A stretch of DNA of 9,196 bases from a virus (Duplodnaviria; Heunggongvirae; Uroviricota; Caudoviricetes): the IMG/VR virus record IMGVR_UViG_3300029214_000125; one strand, 5' to 3'. Each line of letters begins with the position of its first letter. The first letter of the stretch is position 1. The notes beneath the pieces were generated by a model, which was given only the letters and a program-made list of their open reading frames with translations, made no database searches and was not told the DNA's origin. Shown piece by piece: positions 274 through 9,196 of this stretch. A program made the position numbers and the translations under genes.

Positions 274-342
274 ACTCATCTACAATCTTGCGCGGGGCTG
301 AACTCCCGCTGAGTAACACCGTGCCACCGGAGAAACCCGACA

Positions 343-858
343 TTGAACAAATTGAGTGAAGAAATCCGGTTACAGATTATTCCTTACCTCGTGAGTTTTG
401 CCTTTGCTGATTACTCCAGGTCTGCGGCAAGTAAGGCTCGCTGTGAGCATTGTTCAGGTACGGGATTTTATAATGTATTGCGCGAAGTGGTGAAACACTA
501 CAGACGCGGGGAATCTGTAATCAAGGAAGAATGGGTGAAGGAACTATGTCAGCATTGCCATGGTAAGGGCGAAGCCAGCACAGCGTGCAGAGGGTGTAAG
601 GGTAAAGGGATTGTTCTGGATGAAAAAAGAACCCGGTTTCATGGCGTACCGGTATATAAGATTTGTGGGCGTTGTAATGGAAACCGGTTTAGTCGTTTAC
701 CGACCACGCTGGCACGACGTCATGTCCAGAAGCTGGTACCAGACCTGACCGATTATCAGTGGTATAAGGGGTATGCGGACGTCATTGGTAAACTGGTAAC
801 AAAGTGCTGGCAGGAAGAAGCATACGCGGAAGCGCAATTGAGGAAGGTGACGAGATAA
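343..858 (+). CDS. quuQ: Late-gene antiterminator Q-like protein (171 aa, apparent TTG start)
   Basis: Lies immediately upstream of the cspF/cspB pair and the lysis cassette, the position of Q in lambdoid phages and of quuQ in Qin. The protein carries four CxxCxGxG motifs (CEHCSGTG, CQHCHGKG, CRGCKGKG, CGRCNGNR), suggesting a zinc-binding domain. First in-frame start after the TGA at 310-312 is TTG 343, with GGAG at 329-332. The symbol is assigned by synteny and the start is uncertain. Confidence 0.5.
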   Translation: MNKLSEEIRLQIIPYLVSFAFADYSRSAASKARCEHCSGTGFYNVLREVVKHYRRGESVIKEEWVKELCQHCHGKGEASTACRGCKGKGIVLDEKRTRFHGVPVYKICGRCNGNRFSRLPTTLARRHVQKLVPDLTDYQWYKGYADVIGKLVTKCWQEEAYAEAQLRKVTR

Positions 859-889
859 ATGATTTTTGCTGAAGATGGCGACATGATGT

Positions 890-918
890 TTGCATTTTTC
901 AAAAAATATGGATAAAAT
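890..918 (+). promoter_or_regulatory. Candidate late promoter (PR'-like) downstream of the Q gene
   Basis: TTGCAT at 890-895, a 17-nt spacer, then TAAAAT at 913-918, about 35 nt after the Q stop. This is where lambdoid phages place PR' and the qut site. Motif match only. Confidence 0.25.
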
Positions 919-963
919 TTTTTCAACGATGGGCTTTGTATACCCGACGTTAAGAAAAAGTAG

Positions 964-994
964 AAAACCCGCTGATGAGCGGGTTTTGTGCTTT
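964..994. terminator. Intrinsic terminator hairpin (tR'-like), possibly bidirectional between convergent quuQ and cspF
   Basis: Perfect 10-bp stem aaaacccgct / agcgggtttt with loop gatg (964-987), followed by ttttgtgcttt. The opposite strand has a T-rich tract too. Confidence 0.5.
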
Positions 995-1279
995 AAATGG
1001 GGCAATGGTAATGTTGAATCTCATCCCGGGACTCATGTCTGTTAACTTATTATTTAGCTGGTGACTTGGTTATTTGCCTGATGTTTAAAATGTTTTCTTC
1101 CAGTACAATGTCCCTAAACACAATGAGTCTGCTTATTATATTATTAGCAGAGCTATTACGGCCAAAGTACAGCATAAGCTTTTAAAGCCAATCAACCAGT
1201 CATCAAGACAGACGGGGTTATTCATAAAAACTCTCCATGTGTGATCCGATGGGGCCTGAAATTAAAGCTTTAATATAGC

Positions 1280-1492
1280 TCATGAAAGGTAAACATTGGC
1301 AGCTGAAGGGCCACGCAGACCATTTATCCGGCAAAATTCCACGCGTAATCCGGTGGTAATTTCTTCTGCATCGCGGAGATTGAGCGCTGAGACATGAAGC
1401 TGGACATCGATACGACCATCGGATGGGGTGATAAGACCCTTGCCGCTTTTGCCGTCAAAGGTTTTGACAATTCCTGTCATTTTACGGGACAA
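1280..1492 (-). CDS. cspF: Cold-shock protein, CspA family (70 aa)
   Basis: Translation [13 protein letters not shown]...[16 protein letters not shown] has the cold-shock domain and is divergent from cspB as in Qin. The first codon is TTG, with AAGGA 6 nt upstream on the - strand. Confidence 0.9.
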
Positions 1493-1638
1493 AAAAATTC
1501 CTTAATACTGATAACTTGGCGCACTATACACACGTTCCTGAAGAAAGCTATAGTTTTTTGATGGGGTTGAAGATGGCTGGATGTCTAAAATAAACATTGC
1601 TTCATATGTTCAACTATGCGTTAATGATTGCGTCGGTT

Positions 1639-1665
1639 TGAAGAACAGACGATATACGAAGTAGT
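1639..1665 (+). promoter_or_regulatory. Cold-box-like element in the cspB 5' UTR
   Basis: tgaagaacagacgatatacgaagtag resembles the cold box at the 5' end of cspA-family leaders (recalled from cspA). It sits about 150 nt upstream of the cspB ATG. Confidence 0.35.
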
Positions 1666-1792
1666 TTACTAAAGCAGTTCTCATTTCAGGTGTTATTCAC
1701 TTATTCCTTCTTTGAGTCTCTCCAATTAAGTACGAAGTCGTTTCTGTTATGCAAACCATTTATGCCGAAAGGCTCAAGTTAAGGAATGTAGA

Positions 1793-2008
1793 ATGTCAAA
1801 TAAAATGACTGGTTTAGTAAAATGGTTTAACGCTGATAAAGGTTTCGGCTTTATTTCTCCTGTTGATGGTAGTAAAGATGTGTTTGTGCATTTTTCTGCG
1901 ATTCAGAATGATAATTATCGAACCTTATTTGAAGGTCAAAAGGTTACCTTCTCTATAGAGAGTGGTGCTAAAGGTCCTGCAGCAGCAAATGTCATCATTA
2001 CTGATTAA
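1793..2008 (+). CDS. cspB: Cold-shock protein CspB (71 aa)
   Basis: [38 protein letters not shown]... contains the RNP1/RNP2 motifs. SD TAAGGAA lies 6 nt before ATG 1793. Confidence 0.95.
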
Positions 2009-2288
2009 AATTCATCGCTCGTCTGTATACGATAACGAAGAAGGCTGATGCCTGAGTAGAGATACGGACAGAGTAGTGAATATTGGATCTCTTTAATAAA
2101 AAGTAAGGAGGTCCAATACATGAAACAATGGCTAGCATATTTGGCAAAATCTTAATCAGGAAAAGTATGCTAACCATTGTGGTGAAGTGCAGGTTTGCTG
2201 CATGAATAGTTTTACAGCAGAAGCTAACTGCTGGCATGGCAAAACAAAGTGCGTAAGTGGATGACTCCCACAAAAAGCACCACAATCT

Positions 2289-2314
2289 CAAACCCGCTCA
2301 GGCGGGTTTTTTAT
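2289..2314 (+). terminator. Intrinsic terminator closing the cspB transcription unit
   Basis: Stem aaacccgc / gcgggttt with loop tcag (2289-2308), followed by a T run. Confidence 0.55.
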
Positions 2315-2371
2315 TATCTGCTTTAAATATATTATTAAAATATAAAAAATACTTGTTACTAATAAAATCAA

Positions 2372-2542
2372 TCAGGCTACAGCTTTAAGATTTGTCTGGA
2401 ATACTTTGTTGCAATGAGGGCAGATCAAAAGGGCACCTTTTTGTACTCTTGAAAAACTGTGTTCTGACTCTTGGGTGCAGTTTGGGCAGGAACATTTAAC
2501 GAGATAATTACGGCGTGATTTTGAGTTTTTACGTTCTGACAT
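2372..2542 (-). CDS. Small zinc-ribbon protein (56 aa), divergent from the holin gene
   Basis: MSERKNSKSRRNYLVKCSCPNCTQESEHSFSRVQKGALLICPHCNKVFQTNLKAVA has two CxxC pairs about 20 residues apart. AGGAAA lies 5 nt upstream of the ATG on the - strand. Could match one of the small Qin proteins found by ribosome profiling (ynfU-like); not verified. Confidence 0.45.
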   Translation of the reverse strand: MSERKNSKSRRNYLVKCSCPNCTQESEHSFSRVQKGALLICPHCNKVFQTNLKAVA

Positions 2543-2761
2543 AGGCTTTTCCTGTATAAATGGCCGTATACAGTACACTAAATATGAAAACATTTCTCGT
2601 ATTATTATTTTATATATGACTTTCTTTCAAAATAATTACCCACATTTTTAATGTGTATGTTTTTTTAGCGCCGTTGAGAACAACGTGTGCTGTCAAAACT
2701 ACCCCGTAGACTCCGATCTTTTCAAACATATTGCACCATCCGTGTACATCGGGGTGAGGAT

Positions 2762-2977
2762 ATGAAATCAATGGATAAGTTAACAACAGGTGTTGCCTAT
2801 GGCACATCGGCGGGTAATGCTGGTTTCTGGGCATTGCAGTTACTCGATAAAGTAACTCCGTCACAGTGGGCTGCAATCGGTGTGCTGGGTAGCCTGGTTT
2901 TTGGCCTGCTGACGTATCTGACAAATCTTTATTTCAAGATTAAAGAAGACAGGCGTAAGGCTGCGAGAGGAGAGTAA
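2762..2977 (+). CDS. essQ: Phage-21-type pinholin (class II holin S21-like, 71 aa)
   Basis: [71 protein letters not shown] has two transmembrane segments and a charged C-terminus. The Met1-Lys-Ser-Met4 dual-start motif matches the antiholin/holin pair of S21, recalled from the phage 21 sequence. Confidence 0.9.
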
Positions 2978-2981
2978 TCCA

Positions 2982-3308
2982 ATGACTCAAGACTATGAAC
3001 TGGTTGTGAAAGGAGTCCGTAATTTTGAGAATAAAGTTACGGTAACTGTAGCCTTACAGGACAAAGAACGCTTTGACGGTGAAATTTTTGACCTGGATGT
3101 CGCCATGGACCGTGTTGAAGGAGCTGCGCTGGAGTTTTATGAGGCAGCAGCCAGAAGGAGCGTCCGGCAAGTCTNNNNNNNNNNNNNNNNNNNTCCTGGA
3201 AGTAGCAGAAAAATTGTCAGAAAAAGTTGAGTCTTATCTGCAGCATCAGTACTCCTTTAAGATTGAAAATCCTGCCAATAAGCACGAGCGTCCTCATCAT
3301 AAATATAT

Positions 3309-3312
<4 letters not shown>
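2982..3312 (+). CDS. ydfR: Conserved lysis-cassette protein of unknown function (YdfR-like), interrupted by an N run
   Basis: ATG 2982 follows an AGGAG RBS. The ORF runs into the N run at 3175-3193 and resumes one frame over (LEVAEKLSEKVESYLQHQYSFKIENPANKHERPHHKYI). Joining the flanks directly restores a single ORF of about 103 aa. The stop overlaps the rrrQ start (ATGA). Confidence 0.7.
3175..3193. other. Run of 19 ambiguous bases (assembly gap or masked bases)
   Basis: Nineteen consecutive n characters in the sequence. Confidence 0.99.
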
Positions 3313-4336
<1,024 letters not shown>

Positions 4337-4699
4337 GGTAATATTAAATCGGAACATTTACATCGCGGAATGTAAAATTTAAATAAAAAGGACTCTTCCA
4401 TGAGCCAAAATTCCTGAAATCTTAAGGGTAAGATAAAAGGTCTTAATCAGAATGACACGTTATTATTAATAAATAAAGCTATTCTTTCATTGCTGTGTTT
4501 TTCTTTACAAAAGTAATCCTTGCTATGGGTGGTTAATCATGCGTTAATGGTGTTCTGGTTTGTTACAAATTTATCTGAAGCAGTCATTGTTATAATTTTA
4601 TTATTTGTACCTCTTGAGATTTCCTTGTTGGTTTTTCTCTCTGATATTTTTTTTCGGACCATTCTGCCCAAGGGCTAATTTCTTCAAAAGGTAATAATT

Positions 4700-4912
4700 A
4701 TGTCTAACAAAATGACTGGTTTAGTGAAATGGTTTAACCCTGAAAAAGGTTTTGGTTTCATCACGCCGAAAGATGGCAGCAAAGATGTGTTTGTCCATTT
4801 CTCAGCAATTCAGAGCAACGATTTCAAAACATTAACTGAGAATCAGGAAGTTGAATTTGGTATTGAGAACGGACCTAAAGGTCCTGCCGCTGTTCATGTA
4901 GTGGCGCTTTGA
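4700..4912 (+). CDS. cspI: Cold-shock protein CspI (70 aa)
   Basis: [71 protein letters not shown] long AT-rich leader (4337-4699) with TATAAT at 4591-4596 precedes it. Confidence 0.95.
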
Positions 4913-5000
4913 GGTAGACAATATTACAAACCATATTCACTTTAGATGCCCGTGTTGTCATGGTTCCCAGTATAGAACATCATCTTTTGATGTTTCTGAC

Positions 5001-5111
5001 ATGAATCCTTTCGGGGCAAAATGTATCTTTTGTAAATCAATGATGATTACATTTGATAATATTTCACAATACTTAAATGCCAGCCGTCTGTCGTTGGATT
5101 TAAAAAAGTGA
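5001..5111 (+). CDS. Small zinc-ribbon-like ORF (36 aa from ATG 5001; frame open from 4902)
   Basis: The frame reads ...CPCCHGSQYRTSSFDVSDMNPFGAKCIFCKSMMITFDNISQYLNASRLSLDLKK. The first CxxC lies upstream of the only canonical start, so the gene may be 5'-degenerate or use a non-canonical start. No convincing SD. Confidence 0.3.
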   Translation: MNPFGAKCIFCKSMMITFDNISQYLNASRLSLDLKK

Positions 5112-5115
5112 AAAT

Positions 5116-5140
5116 GAAGGCTCCTTCGGGAGCTTTTTTG
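5116..5140 (+). terminator. Intrinsic terminator after cspI
   Basis: Stem gaaggctcc / ggagcttt closed by a UUCG tetraloop, followed by a T run (5134-5139). Confidence 0.7.
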
Positions 5141-5183
5141 CTTGGTATCTATTCGATGGATACTCACATACTACGGTAACATC

Positions 5184-5414
5184 ATGAAAAAAATCATAGT
5201 TTTTTTTAACTCTGAACCTGCAGTGGTAGTGCCAGCGATGACTGGAGTTAACACCATCATGCGTGAATATCCAAATGGCGAAAAAACACACCTTACTGTA
5301 ATGGCCGCAGGGTTTCCATCTCTGACCGGAGATCATAAAGTCATTTATGTAGCCGCGGATCGACATGTTACTTCAGAAGAAATTCTGGAAGCAGCAATAA
5401 GGCTCTTGAGTTGA
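5184..5414 (+). CDS. Hypothetical protein (76 aa)
   Basis: ATG 5184 gives MKKIIVFFNSEPAVVVPAMTGVNTIMREYPNGEKTHLTVMAAGFPSLTGDHKVIYVAADRHVTSEEILEAAIRLLS. RBS is weak and no family was recognised by eye. The six-frame track extends it to 5142 (likely spurious). Confidence 0.45.
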   Translation: MKKIIVFFNSEPAVVVPAMTGVNTIMREYPNGEKTHLTVMAAGFPSLTGDHKVIYVAADRHVTSEEILEAAIRLLS

Positions 5415-5585
5415 TTTGATGCTATTGTATTGATAATTCAGGAAAATTTTCTTTGTCTGTTTGTGTAAAATTTAGACTATCGTATGTTGATTATTGCGAT
5501 GTTTCATCTTATCTTTTACACGTTTGCACCATATAATCGACTTACTGTGTAACTGGAAAGTCATAACAGACTAAAAGAGGAAATG

Positions 5586-5759
5586 ATGAATATTGAAAAC
5601 TTAAAAACAAAAGCAGAAGCAGATATTTCTGAATATATAACAAAAAAAATTATTGAACTTAAGAAAAAGACCGGGAAAGAAGTTACCAGTATTCAGTTTA
5701 CCGCACGGGAAAAAATGACGGGTCTTGAAAGCTATGATGTCAAGATTAATTTAATCTGA
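5586..5759 (+). CDS. gnsB: GnsA/GnsB-family small protein (57 aa)
   Basis: Translated by hand: MNIENLKTKAEADISEYITKKIIELKKKTGKEVTSIQFTAREKMTGLESYDVKINLI, matching the GnsA/GnsB family from memory. GAGG at 5577-5580. Absent from the ORF track because it is under 60 aa; ATG 5583 is an alternative start. Confidence 0.8.
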   Translation: MNIENLKTKAEADISEYITKKIIELKKKTGKEVTSIQFTAREKMTGLESYDVKINLI

Positions 5760-5785
5760 TGTATTCAATAATAAAATTTATCCAT

Positions 5786-5812
5786 AAACCTCGTTTTTAC
5801 GGGGTTTTGTTA
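5786..5812 (+). terminator. Candidate intrinsic terminator after gnsB
   Basis: Stem aaacctcg / cggggttt (one G-U pair) with loop ttttta, followed by ttttgtt. Confidence 0.45.
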
Positions 5813-5910
5813 TATTTGAATGGTTCCGAATATCTAAATCACAATTGTTGATGGTTTTTATTAAACCAATGCAGTCCGGCTCAGGAGTGAGAGAAGCCGG
5901 ACGTTATGGT

Positions 5911-6321
5911 TTAGCGTGGTAAGATCTGTGTAGTTTTCTGGATGCTTTCAGTAAATAGTAATGAATTATCAAAGGTATAGTAATATCTTTTTTGTTCGTG
6001 GATATTTGTAACCCACCGAAAAACTCCTGCTTTAGCAAGGTTTCTTCTGTATTCCTGAAATGTGATCTCTCTGGATTTCAGCTTATTAGAGGTCGTTTCT
6101 ATAAGATGCCTATCCTTTGAAAATTTGACAGACACAATGTTTTTTAGGCCCTTTAATAACACTGTATTATCATTTTTTAATACAATATGAACATTCTCTG
6201 TGGCTAAATAGTAAATGTAATGTGAGACATTGTGACGTTTTAGCTCAGAATAAAACCATTGATAGTTTAAATCGTTTCGAACTTTATCAAATATTTGTTT
6301 AAAAATGACTACCTGATCCAT
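5911..6321 (-). CDS. ydfO: Prophage protein of unknown function (YdfO/YbcV-like, about 136 aa)
   Basis: [31 protein letters not shown]... Preferred start is ATG 6321 with GAAGG 7 nt upstream; ATG 6336 is the alternative. Immediately downstream of ynfO on the same strand. Confidence 0.75.
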
Positions 6322-6378
6322 AGATAAACCTTCCATGTGATATGAGGGGGCGTAGTCTGCACGATTATCTAAATTGCT

Positions 6379-6612
6379 TCAATCTGGTCTGACCTGTTTT
6401 CTGAGCAATTCAGTAATGTCACTCTTTTCTTTGTTTGCTTCAGAAGAAACTCTTTTTTCTGAGCACAGTCTCCGGCGGCAGGCTTCAATGACCCAGGCTG
6501 AGAAATTCCCGGACCCTTTTTGCTCAAGAGCGATGTTAATTTGTTCAATCATTTGGTTAGGAAAGCGGATGTTGCGGGTTGTTGTTCTGCGGGTTCTGTT
6601 CTTCGTTGACAT
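6379..6612 (-). CDS. ynfO: Small basic protein with ribbon-helix-helix-like core (YnfO/YlcI-like, 77 aa)
   Basis: MSTKNRTRRTTTRNIRFPNQMIEQINIALEQKGSGNFSAWVIEACRRRL... has a basic arm, an alternating beta-strand-like RNIRFP, a helix, a GSGN turn and a second helix, which is the RHH pattern. Recalled as similar to YlcI/YnfO. Confidence 0.7.
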   Translation of the reverse strand: MSTKNRTRRTTTRNIRFPNQMIEQINIALEQKGSGNFSAWVIEACRRRLCSEKRVSSEANKEKSDITELLRKQVRPD

Positions 6613-6811
6613 GAGGTTGTCCCGTATTCAGTGTCGCTGATTTGTATTGTCTGAAGTTGTTTTTACGTTAAGTTGATGCAGATCAATTAATACGATATCT
6701 GCGTCATAATTGATTATTTGACGTGGTTTGATGGCGTAGATGCACGTTGTGACATGCAGATGATAATTATTATCATTTTGCGGGTCCTTTCCGGCGATCC
6801 GACAGGTTACG

Positions 6812-6823
6812 GGGCGGCGACCT
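6812..6823 (+). other. cosN: the 12-nt lambda cohesive-end sequence
   Basis: GGGCGGCGACCT is preceded by ...cgggtcctttccggcgatccgacaggttacg and followed by cgcgggttttcgctatttatgaaaattttccggtttaagg. This matches the recalled right-end/left-end junction of phage lambda with a few substitutions. Confidence 0.85.
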
Positions 6824-6990
6824 CGCGGGTTTTCGCTATTTATGAAAATTTTCCGGTTTAAGGCATTTCCGTTCTTCTTCGTCGTAACTTAATGTTTTTA
6901 TTTAAAATACCCCCTGAAAAGAAAGGAAACGACAGGTGCTGAAAACGAGCTTTTGGGCCTCTGTCGTTTCCTTTCTCTGTTTTTGGCCGT
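6824..6990 (+). promoter_or_regulatory. cosB-like region with R-element repeats (Nu1 binding sites)
   Basis: A perfect 15-bp inverted repeat gaaaggaaacgacag (6921-6935) / ctgtcgtttcctttc (6961-6975) and a related tttccgttcttcttcg near 6856-6871 lie between cosN and the Nu1 start, matching the positions of lambda R2, R1 and R3. Confidence 0.7.
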
Positions 6991-7000
6991 GGAATGAACA

Positions 7001-7456
7001 ATGGAAGTCAACAAAAAGCAGCTGGCTGACATTTTCGGTGCGAGTATCCGTACCATTCAGAACTGGCAGGAACAGGGAATGCCCGTTCTGCGAGGCGGTG
7101 GCAAGGGTAATGAGGTGCTTTATGACTCTGCCGCCGTTATAAGATGGTATGCCGAAAGGGATGCTGAAATTGAGAACGAAAAGCTGCGCCGGGAAGTTGA
7201 AGAACTGCGGCAGGCCAGCGAGACAGATCTCCAGCCAGGGACTATTGAGTACGAACGCCATCGACTTACGCGTGCGCAGGCCGACGCACAGGAGCTGAAA
7301 AATGCCAGAGACTCCGCTGAAGTGGTGGAAACCGCATTCTGTACTTTCGTGCTGTCGCGGATCGCAGGTGAAATTGCCAGTATTCTCGACGGGATCCCCC
7401 TGTCGGTGCAGCGGCGTTTTTTTTATTGCAGAAAAGCGAGAGGTAATTATGCGTAA
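7001..7456 (+). CDS. nohA: Terminase small subunit Nu1 homologue, C-terminally truncated and fused to foreign sequence (151 aa)
   Basis: MEVNKKQLADIFGASIRTIQNWQEQGMPVLRGGGKGNEVLYDSAAV... is near-identical to recalled lambda Nu1 through ...LSVQRRF, then diverges to FYCRKARGNYA and stops. The Nu1 C-terminal domain that binds gpA is absent. Confidence 0.85.
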   Translation: MEVNKKQLADIFGASIRTIQNWQEQGMPVLRGGGKGNEVLYDSAAVIRWYAERDAEIENEKLRREVEELRQASETDLQPGTIEYERHRLTRAQADAQELKNARDSAEVVETAFCTFVLSRIAGEIASILDGIPLSVQRRFFYCRKARGNYA

Positions 7457-8048
7457 AGTTTGTGCAGCAATTTTGTCCGCAGCCATTTGTCTGGCCGTAT
7501 CCGGTGCGCCTGCATGGGCGTCTGAACATCAGTCCACGCTGAGCGCGGGGTATCTTCATGCCTCGACGAACGTCCCCGGCAGTGATGATCTGAACGGGAT
7601 TAACGTGAAATACCGTTATGAGTTTACGGACACACTGGGGCTGGTGACGTCATTCAGCTATGCAGGAGACAAGAATCGCCAGCTGACCCGTTACAGCGAT
7701 ACCCGCTGGCATGAAGATTCCGTTCGTAACCGCTGGTTCAGCGTAATGGCGGGGCCGTCTGTGCGCGTGAATGAATGGTTCAGCGCGTATGCGATGGCGG
7801 GTGTGGCTTACAGCCGTGTGTCGACTTTCTCCGGGGATTATCTTCGCGTAACTGACAACAAGGGGAAAAAGCACGATGTGCTGACCGGAAGTGATGACGG
7901 TCGCCACAGCAACACGTCTCTGGCGTGGGGGGCTGGCGTGCAGTTTAACCCGACCGAATCCGTGGCCATTGATATTGCTTATGAAGGCTCCGGCAGTGGT
8001 GACTGGCGCACTGACGGTTTCATCGTGGGTGTCGGTTATAAATTCTGA
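7449..8048 (+). CDS. lom: Lom outer-membrane protein (Ail/Lom/OmpX family, 199 aa)
   Basis: MRKVCAAILSAAICLAVSGAPAWA is a signal peptide with an AxA cleavage site. The C-terminus ...DIAYEGSGSGDWRTDGFIVGVGYKF matches recalled lambda Lom. GAGAGG RBS; the start overlaps the nohA stop. Confidence 0.9.
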   Translation: MRKVCAAILSAAICLAVSGAPAWASEHQSTLSAGYLHASTNVPGSDDLNGINVKYRYEFTDTLGLVTSFSYAGDKNRQLTRYSDTRWHEDSVRNRWFSVMAGPSVRVNEWFSAYAMAGVAYSRVSTFSGDYLRVTDNKGKKHDVLTGSDDGRHSNTSLAWGAGVQFNPTESVAIDIAYEGSGSGDWRTDGFIVGVGYKF

Positions 8049-8112: not shown

Positions 8113-9196
8113 ATGGCAGTAAAGATTTCAGGTGTACTGAAAGACGGCACAGGAAAACCGGTACAGAACTGCACAATCCAGCTGAAAGCAAAACGTAACA
8201 GCACCACGGTGGTGGTAAACACGCTGGCCTCAGAAAATCCGGATGAAGCCGGGCGTTACAGCATGGACGTTGAGTACGGGCAGTACAGCGTTATTCTGTT
8301 GGTGGAGGGATTCCCGCCGTCACATGCCGGGACCATCACCGTGTATGAAGATTCCCGACCCGGTACGCTGAATGATTTTCTCGGTGCCATGACGGAGGAT
8401 GATGCCCGTCCTGAGGCACTGCGCCGTTTTGAACTGATGGTGGAAGAGGTGGCGCGTAACGCGTCCGCGGTGGCACAGAACACGGCAGCCGCGAAGAAGT
8501 CAGCCAGCGATGCCGGCACATCAGCACGTGAGGCGGCAACCCATGCGACTGATGCTGCAGGCTCAGCACGCGCAGCCAGCACGTCAGCCGGACAGGCCGC
8601 GTCGTCGGCTCAGTCAGCATCTTCCAGCGCAGGAACGGCATCAACAAAGGCCAGTGAAGCATCGAAAAGTGCTGCTGCTGCAGAGTCCTCAAAAAGCGCG
8701 GCAGCTACCAGTGCCGCTGCGGCGAAAACGTCAGAAACGAATGCGGCAGCGTCACAACAATCAGCAGCCACTTCTGCATCCGCCGCGACCACGAAGGCGT
8801 CAGAAGCTGCCACCTCAGCCCGGGATGCGGCGGCCTCAAAAGAGGCGGCAAAATCATCAGAAACGAGCGCAGCCTCGAGCGCCAGTAGTGCAGCCTCCTC
8901 GGCAACAGCGGCAGGAAATTCCGCGAAGGCGGCAAAAACGTCAGAGACGAACGCCAGGTCTTCTGAAACGGCAGCGGGACAGAGCGCCTCGGCTGCGGCA
9001 GGCTCAAAAACAGCGGCTGCGTCGTCTGCCAGTGCAGCGTCAACAAGTGCCGGGCAGGCCTCAGCCAGTGCCACCGCCGCCGGAAAATCGGCAGAAAGCG
9101 CCGCATCGTCTGCTTCAACAGCCACAACGAAGGCTGGCGAAGCCACTGAACAGGCCAGCGCAGCAGCGAGGTCTGCTTCCGCAGCGAAGACATCCG
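8113..9196 (+). CDS. stf: Side tail fibre protein Stf, N-terminal part (3' end beyond the window)
   Basis: MAVKISGVLKDGTGKPVQNCTIQLKAKRNSTTVVVNTLASENPDEAGRYSMDVEYGQYSVIL... matches the recalled N-terminus of lambda Stf, followed by the Ala/Ser/Thr-rich repetitive region. Frame checked open at several points to 9196; absent from the ORF track because it has no stop in the window. Confidence 0.9.
   Translation, partial: MAVKISGVLKDGTGKPVQNCTIQLKAKRNSTTVVVNTLASENPDEAGRYSMDVEYGQYSVILLVEGFPPSHAGTITVYEDSRPGTLNDFLGAMTEDDARPEALRRFELMVEEVARNASAVAQNTAAAKKSASDAGTSAREAATHATDAAGSARAASTSAGQAASSAQSASSSAGTASTKASEASKSAAAAESSKSAAATSAAAAKTSETNAAASQQSAATSASAATTKASEAATSARDAAASKEAAKSSETSAASSASSAASSATAAGNSAKAAKTSETNARSSETAAGQSASAAAGSKTAAASSASAASTSAGQASASATAAGKSAESAASSASTATTKAGEATEQASAAARSASAAKTS

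What the first reader, a model, noticed from the sequence alone, without database searches (positions are those of the whole stretch)
6640..7000. Intact lambda-type cos site retained in a prophage that has lost its packaging and structural genes
cosN (GGGCGGCGACCT, 6812-6823), the flanking right-end sequence and the R-element repeats of cosB appear essentially intact, yet the adjacent Nu1 gene is truncated and no large terminase, head or tail genes follow. A cos site without its own terminase could be a substrate for the terminase of a superinfecting or co-resident lambdoid phage, as in cos-type satellites. That would allow packaging or transduction of this locus and adjacent chromosome.
Basis: partly seen in the sequence, partly recalled or inferred. 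Interest (0 to 1): 0.55.

Follow-up and report, generated by a model that had tools for sequence, protein, structure and literature searches.

The report
Leftover lambda cos site in Qin prophage
The window holds a complete lambda-type DNA-packaging (cos) site next to a cut-off small-terminase gene in a Qin-type defective prophage of E. coli, which is a real but common and long-known kind of phage remnant, not a satellite-like mobility device.

Summary
cosQ (6782-6788), the 22-bp cosN (6807-6828), I2, R2 and R1 are identical to phage lambda. R3 carries one change (lambda bp 54 G>A), outside the TerS contact segment. The whole stretch 6699-7420 is base-for-base identical to the complete lambdoid phage PhiR42_1, so the site is most likely functional.

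Nu1 is cut after codon 140 of 181. An ~18.4-kb deletion (A through J) joins it to lom and the side tail fibre gene.

The locus is the Qin cryptic prophage, 99.4% identical to E. coli K-12 Qin. Lambda-type cos copies without an adjacent terminase A gene are commonplace: 8,796 cos places against 5,230 A-gene places in 5,426 E. coli genomes.

A lambda-specificity helper terminase should bind and nick this cos. However, cos terminases need a second cos 38-51 kb downstream to finish packaging, and K-12 has none there. The locus also lacks the defining features of cos-type satellites: it has no rpp gene and no cosB of its own.

Near-identity to a living phage, together with a deletion junction found in no other genome searched, shows the remnant is young. 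No selection is needed to explain the intact site. Interest is low and the feature is already known.

The parts
6782..6788 (+). cosQ (GGGTCCT, lambda 48473-48479), the packaging-termination subsite
   Evidence: Identical to lambda and PhiR42_1. Its role is described in PMC4669245.
6807..6828 (+). cosN, the nicking site; the 12-nt cohesive end GGGCGGCGACCT lies at 6812-6823
   Evidence: All 22 of 22 bases identical to lambda. It is the only copy in the window.
6829..6860 (+). I2 spacer between cosN and cosB
   Evidence: All 32 of 32 bases identical to lambda, so the critical cosN-to-R3 spacing is kept (PMC9026076).
6861..6876 (+). R3, the critical TerS binding box (lambda bp 50-65); carries bp 54 G>A at 6865
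   Evidence: One difference from lambda, lying outside the contact segment bp 55-63 and the critical bp 56, 58 and 59. The same base is present in K-12 Qin and in the complete phage PhiR42_1. It also occurs in 66 IMG/VR contigs; of the 32 of these with at least 3 kb held downstream of cos, 17 run on through Nu1 and A.
6877..6919 (+). Region between R3 and R2 that holds the IHF site I1
   Evidence: Two differences from lambda (bp 73 A>G, bp 102 T>C), both shared with PhiR42_1. The exact I1 boundaries were not scored.
6920..6935 (-). R2, TerS binding box in inverted orientation
   Evidence: Identical to lambda.
6961..6976 (+). R1, TerS binding box
   Evidence: Identical to lambda.
7001..7456 (+). 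Truncated small terminase gene (nohA/Nu1 remnant): Nu1 residues 1-140 plus 11 unrelated residues; the C-terminal TerL-binding domain is missing
   Evidence: Pfam Phage_Nu1, E = 8.8e-88, profile positions 1-141 of 164. Alignment with lambda, PhiR42_1 and K-12 NohA. Domain map from PMC9026076.
7417..7424 (.). Deletion junction in a run of eight T: Nu1 codon 140 is fused to the spacer 25 bp upstream of lom; about 18.4 kb (A through J) is missing relative to PhiR42_1
   Evidence: The contiguous junction is absent from 5,426 complete E. coli genomes, from the GTDB species-representative genomes and from 186 IMG/VR cos loci.
7449..8048 (+). lom (Ail/Lom outer-membrane protein gene)
   Evidence: Pfam Ail_Lom, E = 9.9e-123, full length. 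98% identical to PhiR42_1 lom.
8113..9196 (+). 5' part of the side tail fibre gene stf, which runs off the window
   Evidence: Pfam phage_tail_N, E = 2.3e-72; phage matches.
343..858 (+). Remnant of the late-gene antiterminator Q (ydfT/quuQ), lacking about 76 N-terminal codons after a ~1.57-kb deletion that also removed ydfU
   Evidence: blastn against K-12 and strain 19SZHZ713Rt; Pfam Antiterm.

Best explanation
This is the cos site of a Qin-type defective lambdoid prophage of E. coli. A recent deletion of about 18.4 kb, formed at a short T-run microhomology, removed the genes from the end of Nu1 through J and left the site stranded. The site is intact simply because the remnant is young; it is not kept for a purpose.

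Mechanistically (inferred): when a phage of lambda packaging specificity grows in the cell, its TerS should bind R3/R2/R1 with IHF, and its TerL should nick cosN at 6812/6823. Packaging would then run rightwards through nohA', lom and stf into the chromosome. No second cos is known at 38-51 kb, so no terminal cut can be made and no normal infectious transducing particle results.

The realistic consequences are two. One is a terminase-made double-strand break. The other is a local recombination hot spot through which infecting phages and the remnant exchange cos-proximal DNA.

The element cannot act on its own cos. It has no TerL, its TerS remnant lacks the TerL-binding tail, and its Q antiterminator is truncated.
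For: Shown:
- The locus is Qin: 99.4% identity to MG1655 Qin over 7,087 bp, with the same gene order.
- Every cos subsite is identical to lambda except single changes at bp 54, 73 and 102.
- Window 6699-7420 is identical to the complete phage PhiR42_1, which has full Nu1, A, W and B. The 5,041 bp shared with that phage are 99.4% identical.
- The bp 54 A variant sits next to collinear Nu1-A in 17 of the 32 IMG/VR loci that have at least 3 kb held downstream of cos.
- Nu1 ends at codon 140, and Q is truncated.
- The junction is private to this sequence.
- Orphan cos copies are common: 8,796 cos places in 4,591 genomes against 5,230 terminase-A 5' places in 3,761 genomes.

From the literature:
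- The R3 contact bases are bp 55-63, and the cosN-cosB spacing is critical.
- cosQ, cosN and I2 serve termination, and a helper phage packages unexcised cos-to-cos prophages.
- A second cos is required, and cos phages do not perform lateral transduction.
- Half of the lambda x DLP12 recombinant junctions lie next to cos.

K-12 used as a stand-in: only chance-level 2-mismatch matches to cosN occur in the 50 kb L009 locus (1,580,000-1,629,999), which with L003 covers about 56 kb downstream of the Qin cos (4 found, 3.07 expected).
Against: No experiment was done here, so cutting of this cos by a helper terminase is inferred from sequence identity. I could not find a paper describing PhiR42_1; its viability rests on the GenBank record ('complete genome', host ECOR13). 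The flanks of the source genome are unknown, so a second cos at packaging distance cannot be excluded for this strain. E. coli genomes carry up to 8 lambda-type cos places. The bp 54 G is conserved in all three lambda R boxes, so a modest effect on affinity for lambda TerS cannot be ruled out.
Confidence: 0.78

Rival explanations
1. Proto-satellite or 'hitcher': the cos is kept because it lets the remnant, or the neighbouring chromosome, be packaged and transferred by a helper lambdoid phage.
For: The cos is intact and of lambda specificity. Defective O157 prophages can be released as particles and transferred with help from co-resident prophages (PMC2669165). Defective prophages have been proposed as proto-hitchers (PMC11389934). 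Many E. coli genomes hold several lambda-type cos sites (median 2, up to 8), so cos-to-cos pairs at packaging distance may exist in some strains.
Against: The locus has no rpp and no private cosB; the gene next to cos is a Nu1 fragment. Q is truncated. Cos terminases need a second cos, and cos phages are reported not to perform lateral or generalized transduction. K-12 has no downstream cos within 56 kb. The deletion junction is private and the DNA is nearly identical to a living phage, so there has been no time for selection to act.
Confidence: 0.08
2. Interference module: the truncated TerS (DNA-binding plus oligomerisation domains, no TerL-binding tail) binds cosB or forms mixed oligomers with a helper's TerS. 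Together with the chromosomal cos it poisons or diverts packaging by infecting lambda-specificity phages.
For: NohA' keeps residues 1-140, with a recognition helix and wing identical to lambda TerS, and lacks the C-terminal ~40 residues needed to bind TerL. PICI Rpp proteins block helpers by pairing with TerS.
Against: There is no evidence that NohA' is expressed, and the element's own Q is truncated. This truncation point is private to this sequence, whereas K-12 NohA keeps almost the whole C-terminus. A selected function for this form is therefore unlikely. Nothing was tested.
Confidence: 0.04
3. Dead site: the changes at bp 54 (R3), bp 73 and 102 (I1 region) and lambda 48486 (between cosQ and cosN) disable the site.
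For: The G at bp 54 is conserved in all three lambda R boxes, and R3 is the most critical box.
Against: All these bases are present in the complete phage PhiR42_1. The bp 54 A variant is common next to intact Nu1-A. bp 54 lies outside the NMR contact segment 55-63 and the genetically defined bp 56, 58 and 59.
Confidence: 0.04

Closest known systems
cos / nohA region of the Qin cryptic prophage of E. coli K-12 (b1548 region), and the analogous cos-nohD region of DLP12
   Same: Same prophage with the same gene order: rem, Q, cspF, cspB, essQ, ydfR, rrrQ, rzpQ, cspI, gnsB, ydfO, ynfO, cos, nohA. Identity is 99.4%, and the cosB haplotype is identical. In both, cos sits beside a damaged Nu1 with no working terminase.
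   Different: The deletion end points differ. K-12 NohA keeps about 175 Nu1 residues fused to stfQ. Here Nu1 stops at residue 140 and is joined upstream of lom, so lom and the stf 5' end are kept. This copy also lacks ydfU and the start of Q. The 100 bp to the left of cosN follow the PhiR42_1 haplotype, not the lambda-like one found in K-12.
cos of phage lambda and of lambda-specificity phages such as PhiR42_1
   Same: cosQ, cosN, I2, R2 and R1 are identical to lambda, and the R3-I1-R2-R1 layout and all spacings are kept. The entire cos is identical to PhiR42_1.
   Different: No cognate terminase, head or tail-shaft genes lie behind it. It has a single R3 polymorphism (bp 54) relative to lambda.
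cos-type phage satellites: Gram-negative PICIs (EcCICFT073 type, with Rpp), and SaPIbov5 in staphylococci (the latter from my own knowledge)
   Same: A chromosomal element with helper-like cosQ and cosN and no terminase of its own.
   Different: PICIs have no lambda-like R sequences. Next to cos they carry rpp, whose product redirects helper TerS to the island, and they excise and replicate on helper induction. Here cosB is the helper's own, the adjacent gene is a broken Nu1, and no excision, replication or redirection function is seen in the window.
Helper packaging of unexcised tandem prophages (Feiss laboratory assay), and lambda doc particles (the latter from my own knowledge: Sternberg and Weisberg 1975)
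   Same: A helper terminase starts at a chromosomal cos and packages rightwards in situ.
   Different: Those assays supply a second cos one genome length downstream. With a single cos only unfinished, non-infectious filled heads are expected.

Membership tests
lambda-type cos site (lambda packaging specificity) | 12-nt cohesive-end sequence within a cosN that has symmetric flanks | tested here: met
   All 22 of 22 bases identical to lambda at 6807-6828.
lambda-type cos site (lambda packaging specificity) | 7-bp cosQ upstream of cosN | tested here: met
   GGGTCCT at 6782-6788, equal to lambda 48473-48479.
lambda-type cos site (lambda packaging specificity) | cosB ordered R3-I1-R2-R1, with R2 inverted and the cosN-R3 spacing unchanged | tested here: met
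   Boxes lie at 6861-6876 (+), 6920-6935 (-) and 6961-6976 (+). I2 is identical and there are no indels relative to lambda.
lambda-type cos site (lambda packaging specificity) | R3 bases contacted by TerS (bp 55-63; critical bp 56, 58, 59) intact | tested here: met
   The only R3 change is at bp 54; the criteria come from PMC9026076.
lambda-type cos site (lambda packaging specificity) | Cleaved by terminase and able to start packaging | not testable with these tools
   Inferred from identity to the cos of the complete phage PhiR42_1.
Qin cryptic prophage | Collinear late region (Q, csp genes, essQ-rrrQ-rzpQ, gnsB, ydfO, ynfO, cos, nohA) highly similar to K-12 Qin | tested here: met
   99.4% identity over 7,087 bp to MG1655 positions 1,635,948-1,643,013.
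cos-type phage satellite (Gram-negative PICI) | rpp gene immediately downstream of cos | tested here: not met
   The gene at 7001-7456 is Phage_Nu1 (E = 8.8e-88) and identical to phage Nu1 residues 1-140.
cos-type phage satellite (Gram-negative PICI) | Its own cosB, without helper R sequences | tested here: not met
   Three lambda R boxes are present; PICIs have none.
cos-type phage satellite (Gram-negative PICI) | Helper-induced excision and replication (int, alpA, pri-rep) | not tested
   No such genes lie in the 9.2-kb window, and the rest of the element is outside it. The element's own Q is truncated.
Lateral transduction from a prophage packaging site | Headful (pac-type) termination that allows successive chromosomal headfuls | tested here: not met
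   The site is cos-type. Cos terminases need a second cos, and cos phages are reported not to perform lateral transduction.
Lateral transduction from a prophage packaging site | For a cos system: a second cos in the same orientation 38-51 kb downstream | tested here: inconclusive
   K-12 has none within about 56 kb downstream of the Qin cos. The source genome beyond the window is unknown.

The most novel reading that the evidence does not exclude
Lambda-type cos copies without a terminase are very numerous in E. coli: at least about 3,500 in 5,426 genomes, and up to 8 cos places per genome. They could therefore act together. Where two cos sites (orphan or intact) lie 38-51 kb apart in the same orientation, a helper terminase would package the chromosome between them into normal infectious particles. 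That would be a cos-type counterpart of lateral transduction, which current literature says does not exist. In such a pair this cos could serve as the start site (cosN plus cosB) or the stop site (cosQ, cosN and I2).
Probability: 0.07. Interest if true: 0.5.

Novelty: already known. Interest (0 to 1): 0.15.

Why it matters
As it stands, little. It is another decay variant of a well-known cryptic prophage. Its intact cos is what one expects from a young deletion.

It is still a useful reminder that E. coli chromosomes are full of cos sites that a lambda terminase could probably cut. These sites can break the chromosome during lambdoid infection, and they favour exchange of cos-proximal genes (lysis genes, bor/lom-type morons, terminase) between phages and remnants.

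It would matter more if pairs of such sites at packaging distance were shown to drive transfer of chromosomal segments.

Tried and rejected
- The exact Nu1'-lom junction was sought in 5,426 complete E. coli genomes (only separate halves, plus one different deletion in TUM9812), in the GTDB species-representative genomes (none) and in 186 IMG/VR cos loci (none). The source strain therefore stays unidentified. It may be a Shigella or a draft E. coli genome; this is a guess.
- Several literature searches found nothing usable in the open library. The targets were nohA/nohB, lambda qin hybrids, lambda doc particles, and lethality of terminase through cryptic chromosomal cos sites. What I recall of Espion et al. 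1983, Murialdo 1988 and Sternberg and Weisberg 1975 is therefore marked as memory and not used as evidence.
- No paper describing PhiR42_1 was found.
- Rfam found only the two cspA thermoregulator leaders and nothing at cos.
- The 47-aa ORF at 6718-6861, which spans cosN and is annotated as hypothetical in PhiR42_1, was dismissed as a mechanical ORF call.
- The ungapped 50-bp-block collinearity census can mistake indels or divergence for deletions, so its fractions are rough.
- The idea that bp 54 G>A disables R3 was rejected, because complete phage genomes carry the same base.

Full report
**What the window is.** The 9,196-bp window is the late region of a Qin-type defective lambdoid prophage of E. 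coli. Window 334-7420 is 99.4% identical to the Qin prophage of MG1655, and relatives occur in nearly all of 5,426 complete E. coli genomes. Reading left to right, it contains:
- rem;
- a ~1.57-kb deletion that removed ydfU and the first ~76 codons of the Q antiterminator (remnant at 343-858);
- cspF, cspB, essQ, ydfR, rrrQ, rzpQ, cspI and gnsB;
- ydfO (5911-6336, minus strand) and ynfO (6379-6612, minus strand);
- the cos site;
- a truncated Nu1 homologue (7001-7456);
- lom (7449-8048);
- the start of the side tail fibre gene (8113 onward).

**Check of the observation.** GGGCGGCGACCT is at 6812-6823 and nowhere else in the window. By itself the 12-mer proves little. The real evidence is homology: 96.7% identity to phage lambda across cos and Nu1.

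With window 6812 set to lambda bp 1, the subsites score as follows:

| Subsite | Window coordinates | Differences from lambda |
|---|---|---|
| cosQ (GGGTCCT) | 6782-6788 | 0 |
| cosN (22 bp) | 6807-6828 | 0 |
| I2 spacer | 6829-6860 | 0 |
| R3 | 6861-6876 | 1 (bp 54 G>A) |
| I1 region | 6877-6919 | 2 (bp 73 A>G, bp 102 T>C) |
| R2 (inverted) | 6920-6935 | 0 |
| R1 | 6961-6976 | 0 |

There are no indels, so all spacings are kept. Three R boxes were found where 0.06 were expected by chance.

Murialdo and Feiss place R3 at bp 50-65. The TerS contact segment is bp 55-63, and the functionally defined bases are 56, 58 and 59. The cosN-cosB spacing is critical (PMC9026076). The bp 54 change therefore lies inside the box but outside the contacted bases.

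**Is the site likely to work?** The strongest evidence is comparative. Window 6699-7420 covers lambda 48390 through cos to Nu1 codon 140. It is identical, base for base, to the complete 48.7-kb phage PhiR42_1 (PV340562.1, host ECOR13). That phage has the same Qin-like lysis, csp, gnsB and ynfO region, followed by full-length Nu1, A, W, B and so on. Over the 5,041 bp shared with that phage, identity is 99.4%.

The exact cosN-to-R3 stretch with bp 54 = A occurs in 66 IMG/VR viral contigs. The lambda form (G) occurs in at least 120. Of the 32 A-form loci with at least 3 kb downstream, 17 run collinearly through Nu1 and A.

The Nu1 of PhiR42_1 and the remnant here differ from lambda Nu1 only at residues 48, 75 and 131. 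None of these lies in the recognition helix (17-24) or the wing (31-39). The site therefore belongs to lambda packaging specificity and is very probably cleavable. This is inference; nothing was cut here.

**The truncation.** Nu1 is collinear with lambda, PhiR42_1 and K-12 NohA up to base 7420 (codon 140 of 181). It then reads 11 unrelated codons to a stop at 7454-7456. Pfam matches Phage_Nu1 positions 1-141 of 164.

The junction lies in a run of eight T (7417-7424). Nu1 contributes up to four of these T and the lom upstream spacer up to six, so there is a microhomology of at most 4 nt. In PhiR42_1 the two sides are about 18.4 kb apart, which means A through J are gone.

The lost C-terminal ~40 residues are the TerL-binding domain. 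The retained part holds the winged-helix DNA-binding domain and the oligomerisation domain (PMC9026076).

The contiguous junction is absent from all 5,426 complete E. coli genomes, from the GTDB species-representative genomes and from 186 IMG/VR loci. Other strains show different end points:
- K-12 and G4/9: Nu1 fused to stf;
- 19SZHZ713Rt: Nu1 cut at 131 bp and joined to a J fragment.

Qin remnants are thus decaying independently in different lineages, and this particular deletion looks recent.

**How common is this?** A 231-bp cos core (6770-7000) has 8,796 places in 4,591 of 5,426 E. coli genomes, with a median of 2 and a maximum of 8 per genome. A 501-bp segment from the 5' part of the neighbouring terminase A gene has 5,230 places in 3,761 genomes. 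Roughly 3,500 lambda-type cos copies therefore lack the adjacent A segment. This is a lower bound, because truncated A genes are counted as present.

In IMG/VR, 30 of 97 loci with at least 3 kb downstream lose collinearity before the end of A (a rough, ungapped measure). An intact cos next to a broken packaging module is ordinary in E. coli.

**What it most likely does.** Initiation needs cosN and cosB. Termination needs cosQ, cosN and I2 (PMC4669245). All of these are present, so a lambda-specificity terminase supplied in trans should bind and nick here. Feiss's helper-packaging assay shows that a helper packages repressed, unexcised prophages directly from chromosomal cos to the next cos.

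Packaging would run rightwards, through nohA', lom and stf and then into the chromosome. [quoted passage not shown] Cos phages, including lambda, are reported not to carry out lateral or generalized transduction.

In K-12, the best available stand-in for the unknown flanks, the ~56 kb downstream of the Qin cos hold only chance-level 2-mismatch matches to cosN (4 found, 3.07 expected). The expected outcome is therefore cutting plus unfinished packaging. From my own knowledge, this corresponds to the single-cohesive-end 'doc' particles of lambda, which are not infectious without further treatment.

A better documented consequence is recombination. Half of the lambda x DLP12 recombinant junctions lie next to cos, and this is attributed to terminase-made breaks (PMC3945230).

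The window fits that picture. It and K-12 Qin differ at 11 positions, all within 6698-6795, just to the left of cosN. In that stretch K-12 equals lambda and the window equals PhiR42_1. To the right of cosN the window and K-12 are identical, and both differ from lambda. Kati and 19SZHZ713Rt show the opposite combination. All four left/right haplotype combinations therefore exist, which means recombination has occurred at or near cos.

**Comparison with cos-type satellites.** Gram-negative PICIs have helper-like cosQ and cosN but no lambda R sequences. Next to cos they carry rpp, whose product captures helper TerS and redirects it to the island. They also excise and replicate on helper induction (PMC9026076).

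Here cosB is lambda's own, and the gene next to cos is a Nu1 fragment. No excision or replication function lies in the window, and the element's Q is broken. Two defining features were tested and not met, so this is not a satellite.

The wider idea that defective prophages can be mobilised by co-resident phages has precedent (PMC2669165; PMC11389934). Nothing here points to adaptation for that purpose.

**Verdict.** The feature is already known as the cos/nohA region of Qin, here with a private deletion end point. Interest is low.

The least ordinary reading still open is that pairs of such abundant chromosomal cos sites at packaging distance mediate cos-to-cos transfer of chromosomal segments. 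This can be tested by a genome-wide census of cos spacing and by sequencing helper lysates.

Noticed in passing
window 6698-6795 versus 6865-6986: The window and K-12 Qin differ at 11 positions, all in the 100 bp to the left of cosN. There K-12 equals lambda and the window equals PhiR42_1. To the right of cosN the two are identical and both differ from lambda. Kati and strain 19SZHZ713Rt carry the reverse combination. All four left/right haplotype combinations therefore exist, which indicates recombination at or near cos.
   Followed up: partly
window 334-340: A ~1.57-kb deletion relative to K-12 and other Qin copies removes a small hypothetical gene, all of ydfU and the first ~76 codons of the Q antiterminator (ydfT/quuQ). 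There is a 7-bp overlap at the junction. The prophage has therefore also lost its own late-gene activator.
   Followed up: partly
window 1632-2024 and 4554-4939: Two full-length matches to the cspA thermoregulator RNA family (RF01766; 158.8 and 112.8 bits). They are the leaders of the prophage cold-shock genes cspB and cspI.
   Followed up: no
window 7446-7456: The stop codon of the truncated Nu1 reading frame (7454-7456) overlaps the lom start codon (7449). The deletion also removed part of the hairpin-plus-T-run that lies upstream of lom in PhiR42_1. lom may therefore now be read through from the nohA' transcript.
   Followed up: no
E. coli genome collection: Lambda-type cos cores are present in 4,591 of 5,426 complete E. 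coli genomes (8,796 places, up to 8 per genome). They outnumber the adjacent terminase A 5' segments by about 3,500. Nobody appears to have asked whether any pairs lie at packaging distance.
   Followed up: partly
window 6718-6861: A 47-aa ORF runs straight across cosQ and cosN. Its counterpart is annotated as a hypothetical protein in phage PhiR42_1 (L006 4319-4462). It is most likely an annotation artefact.
   Followed up: no
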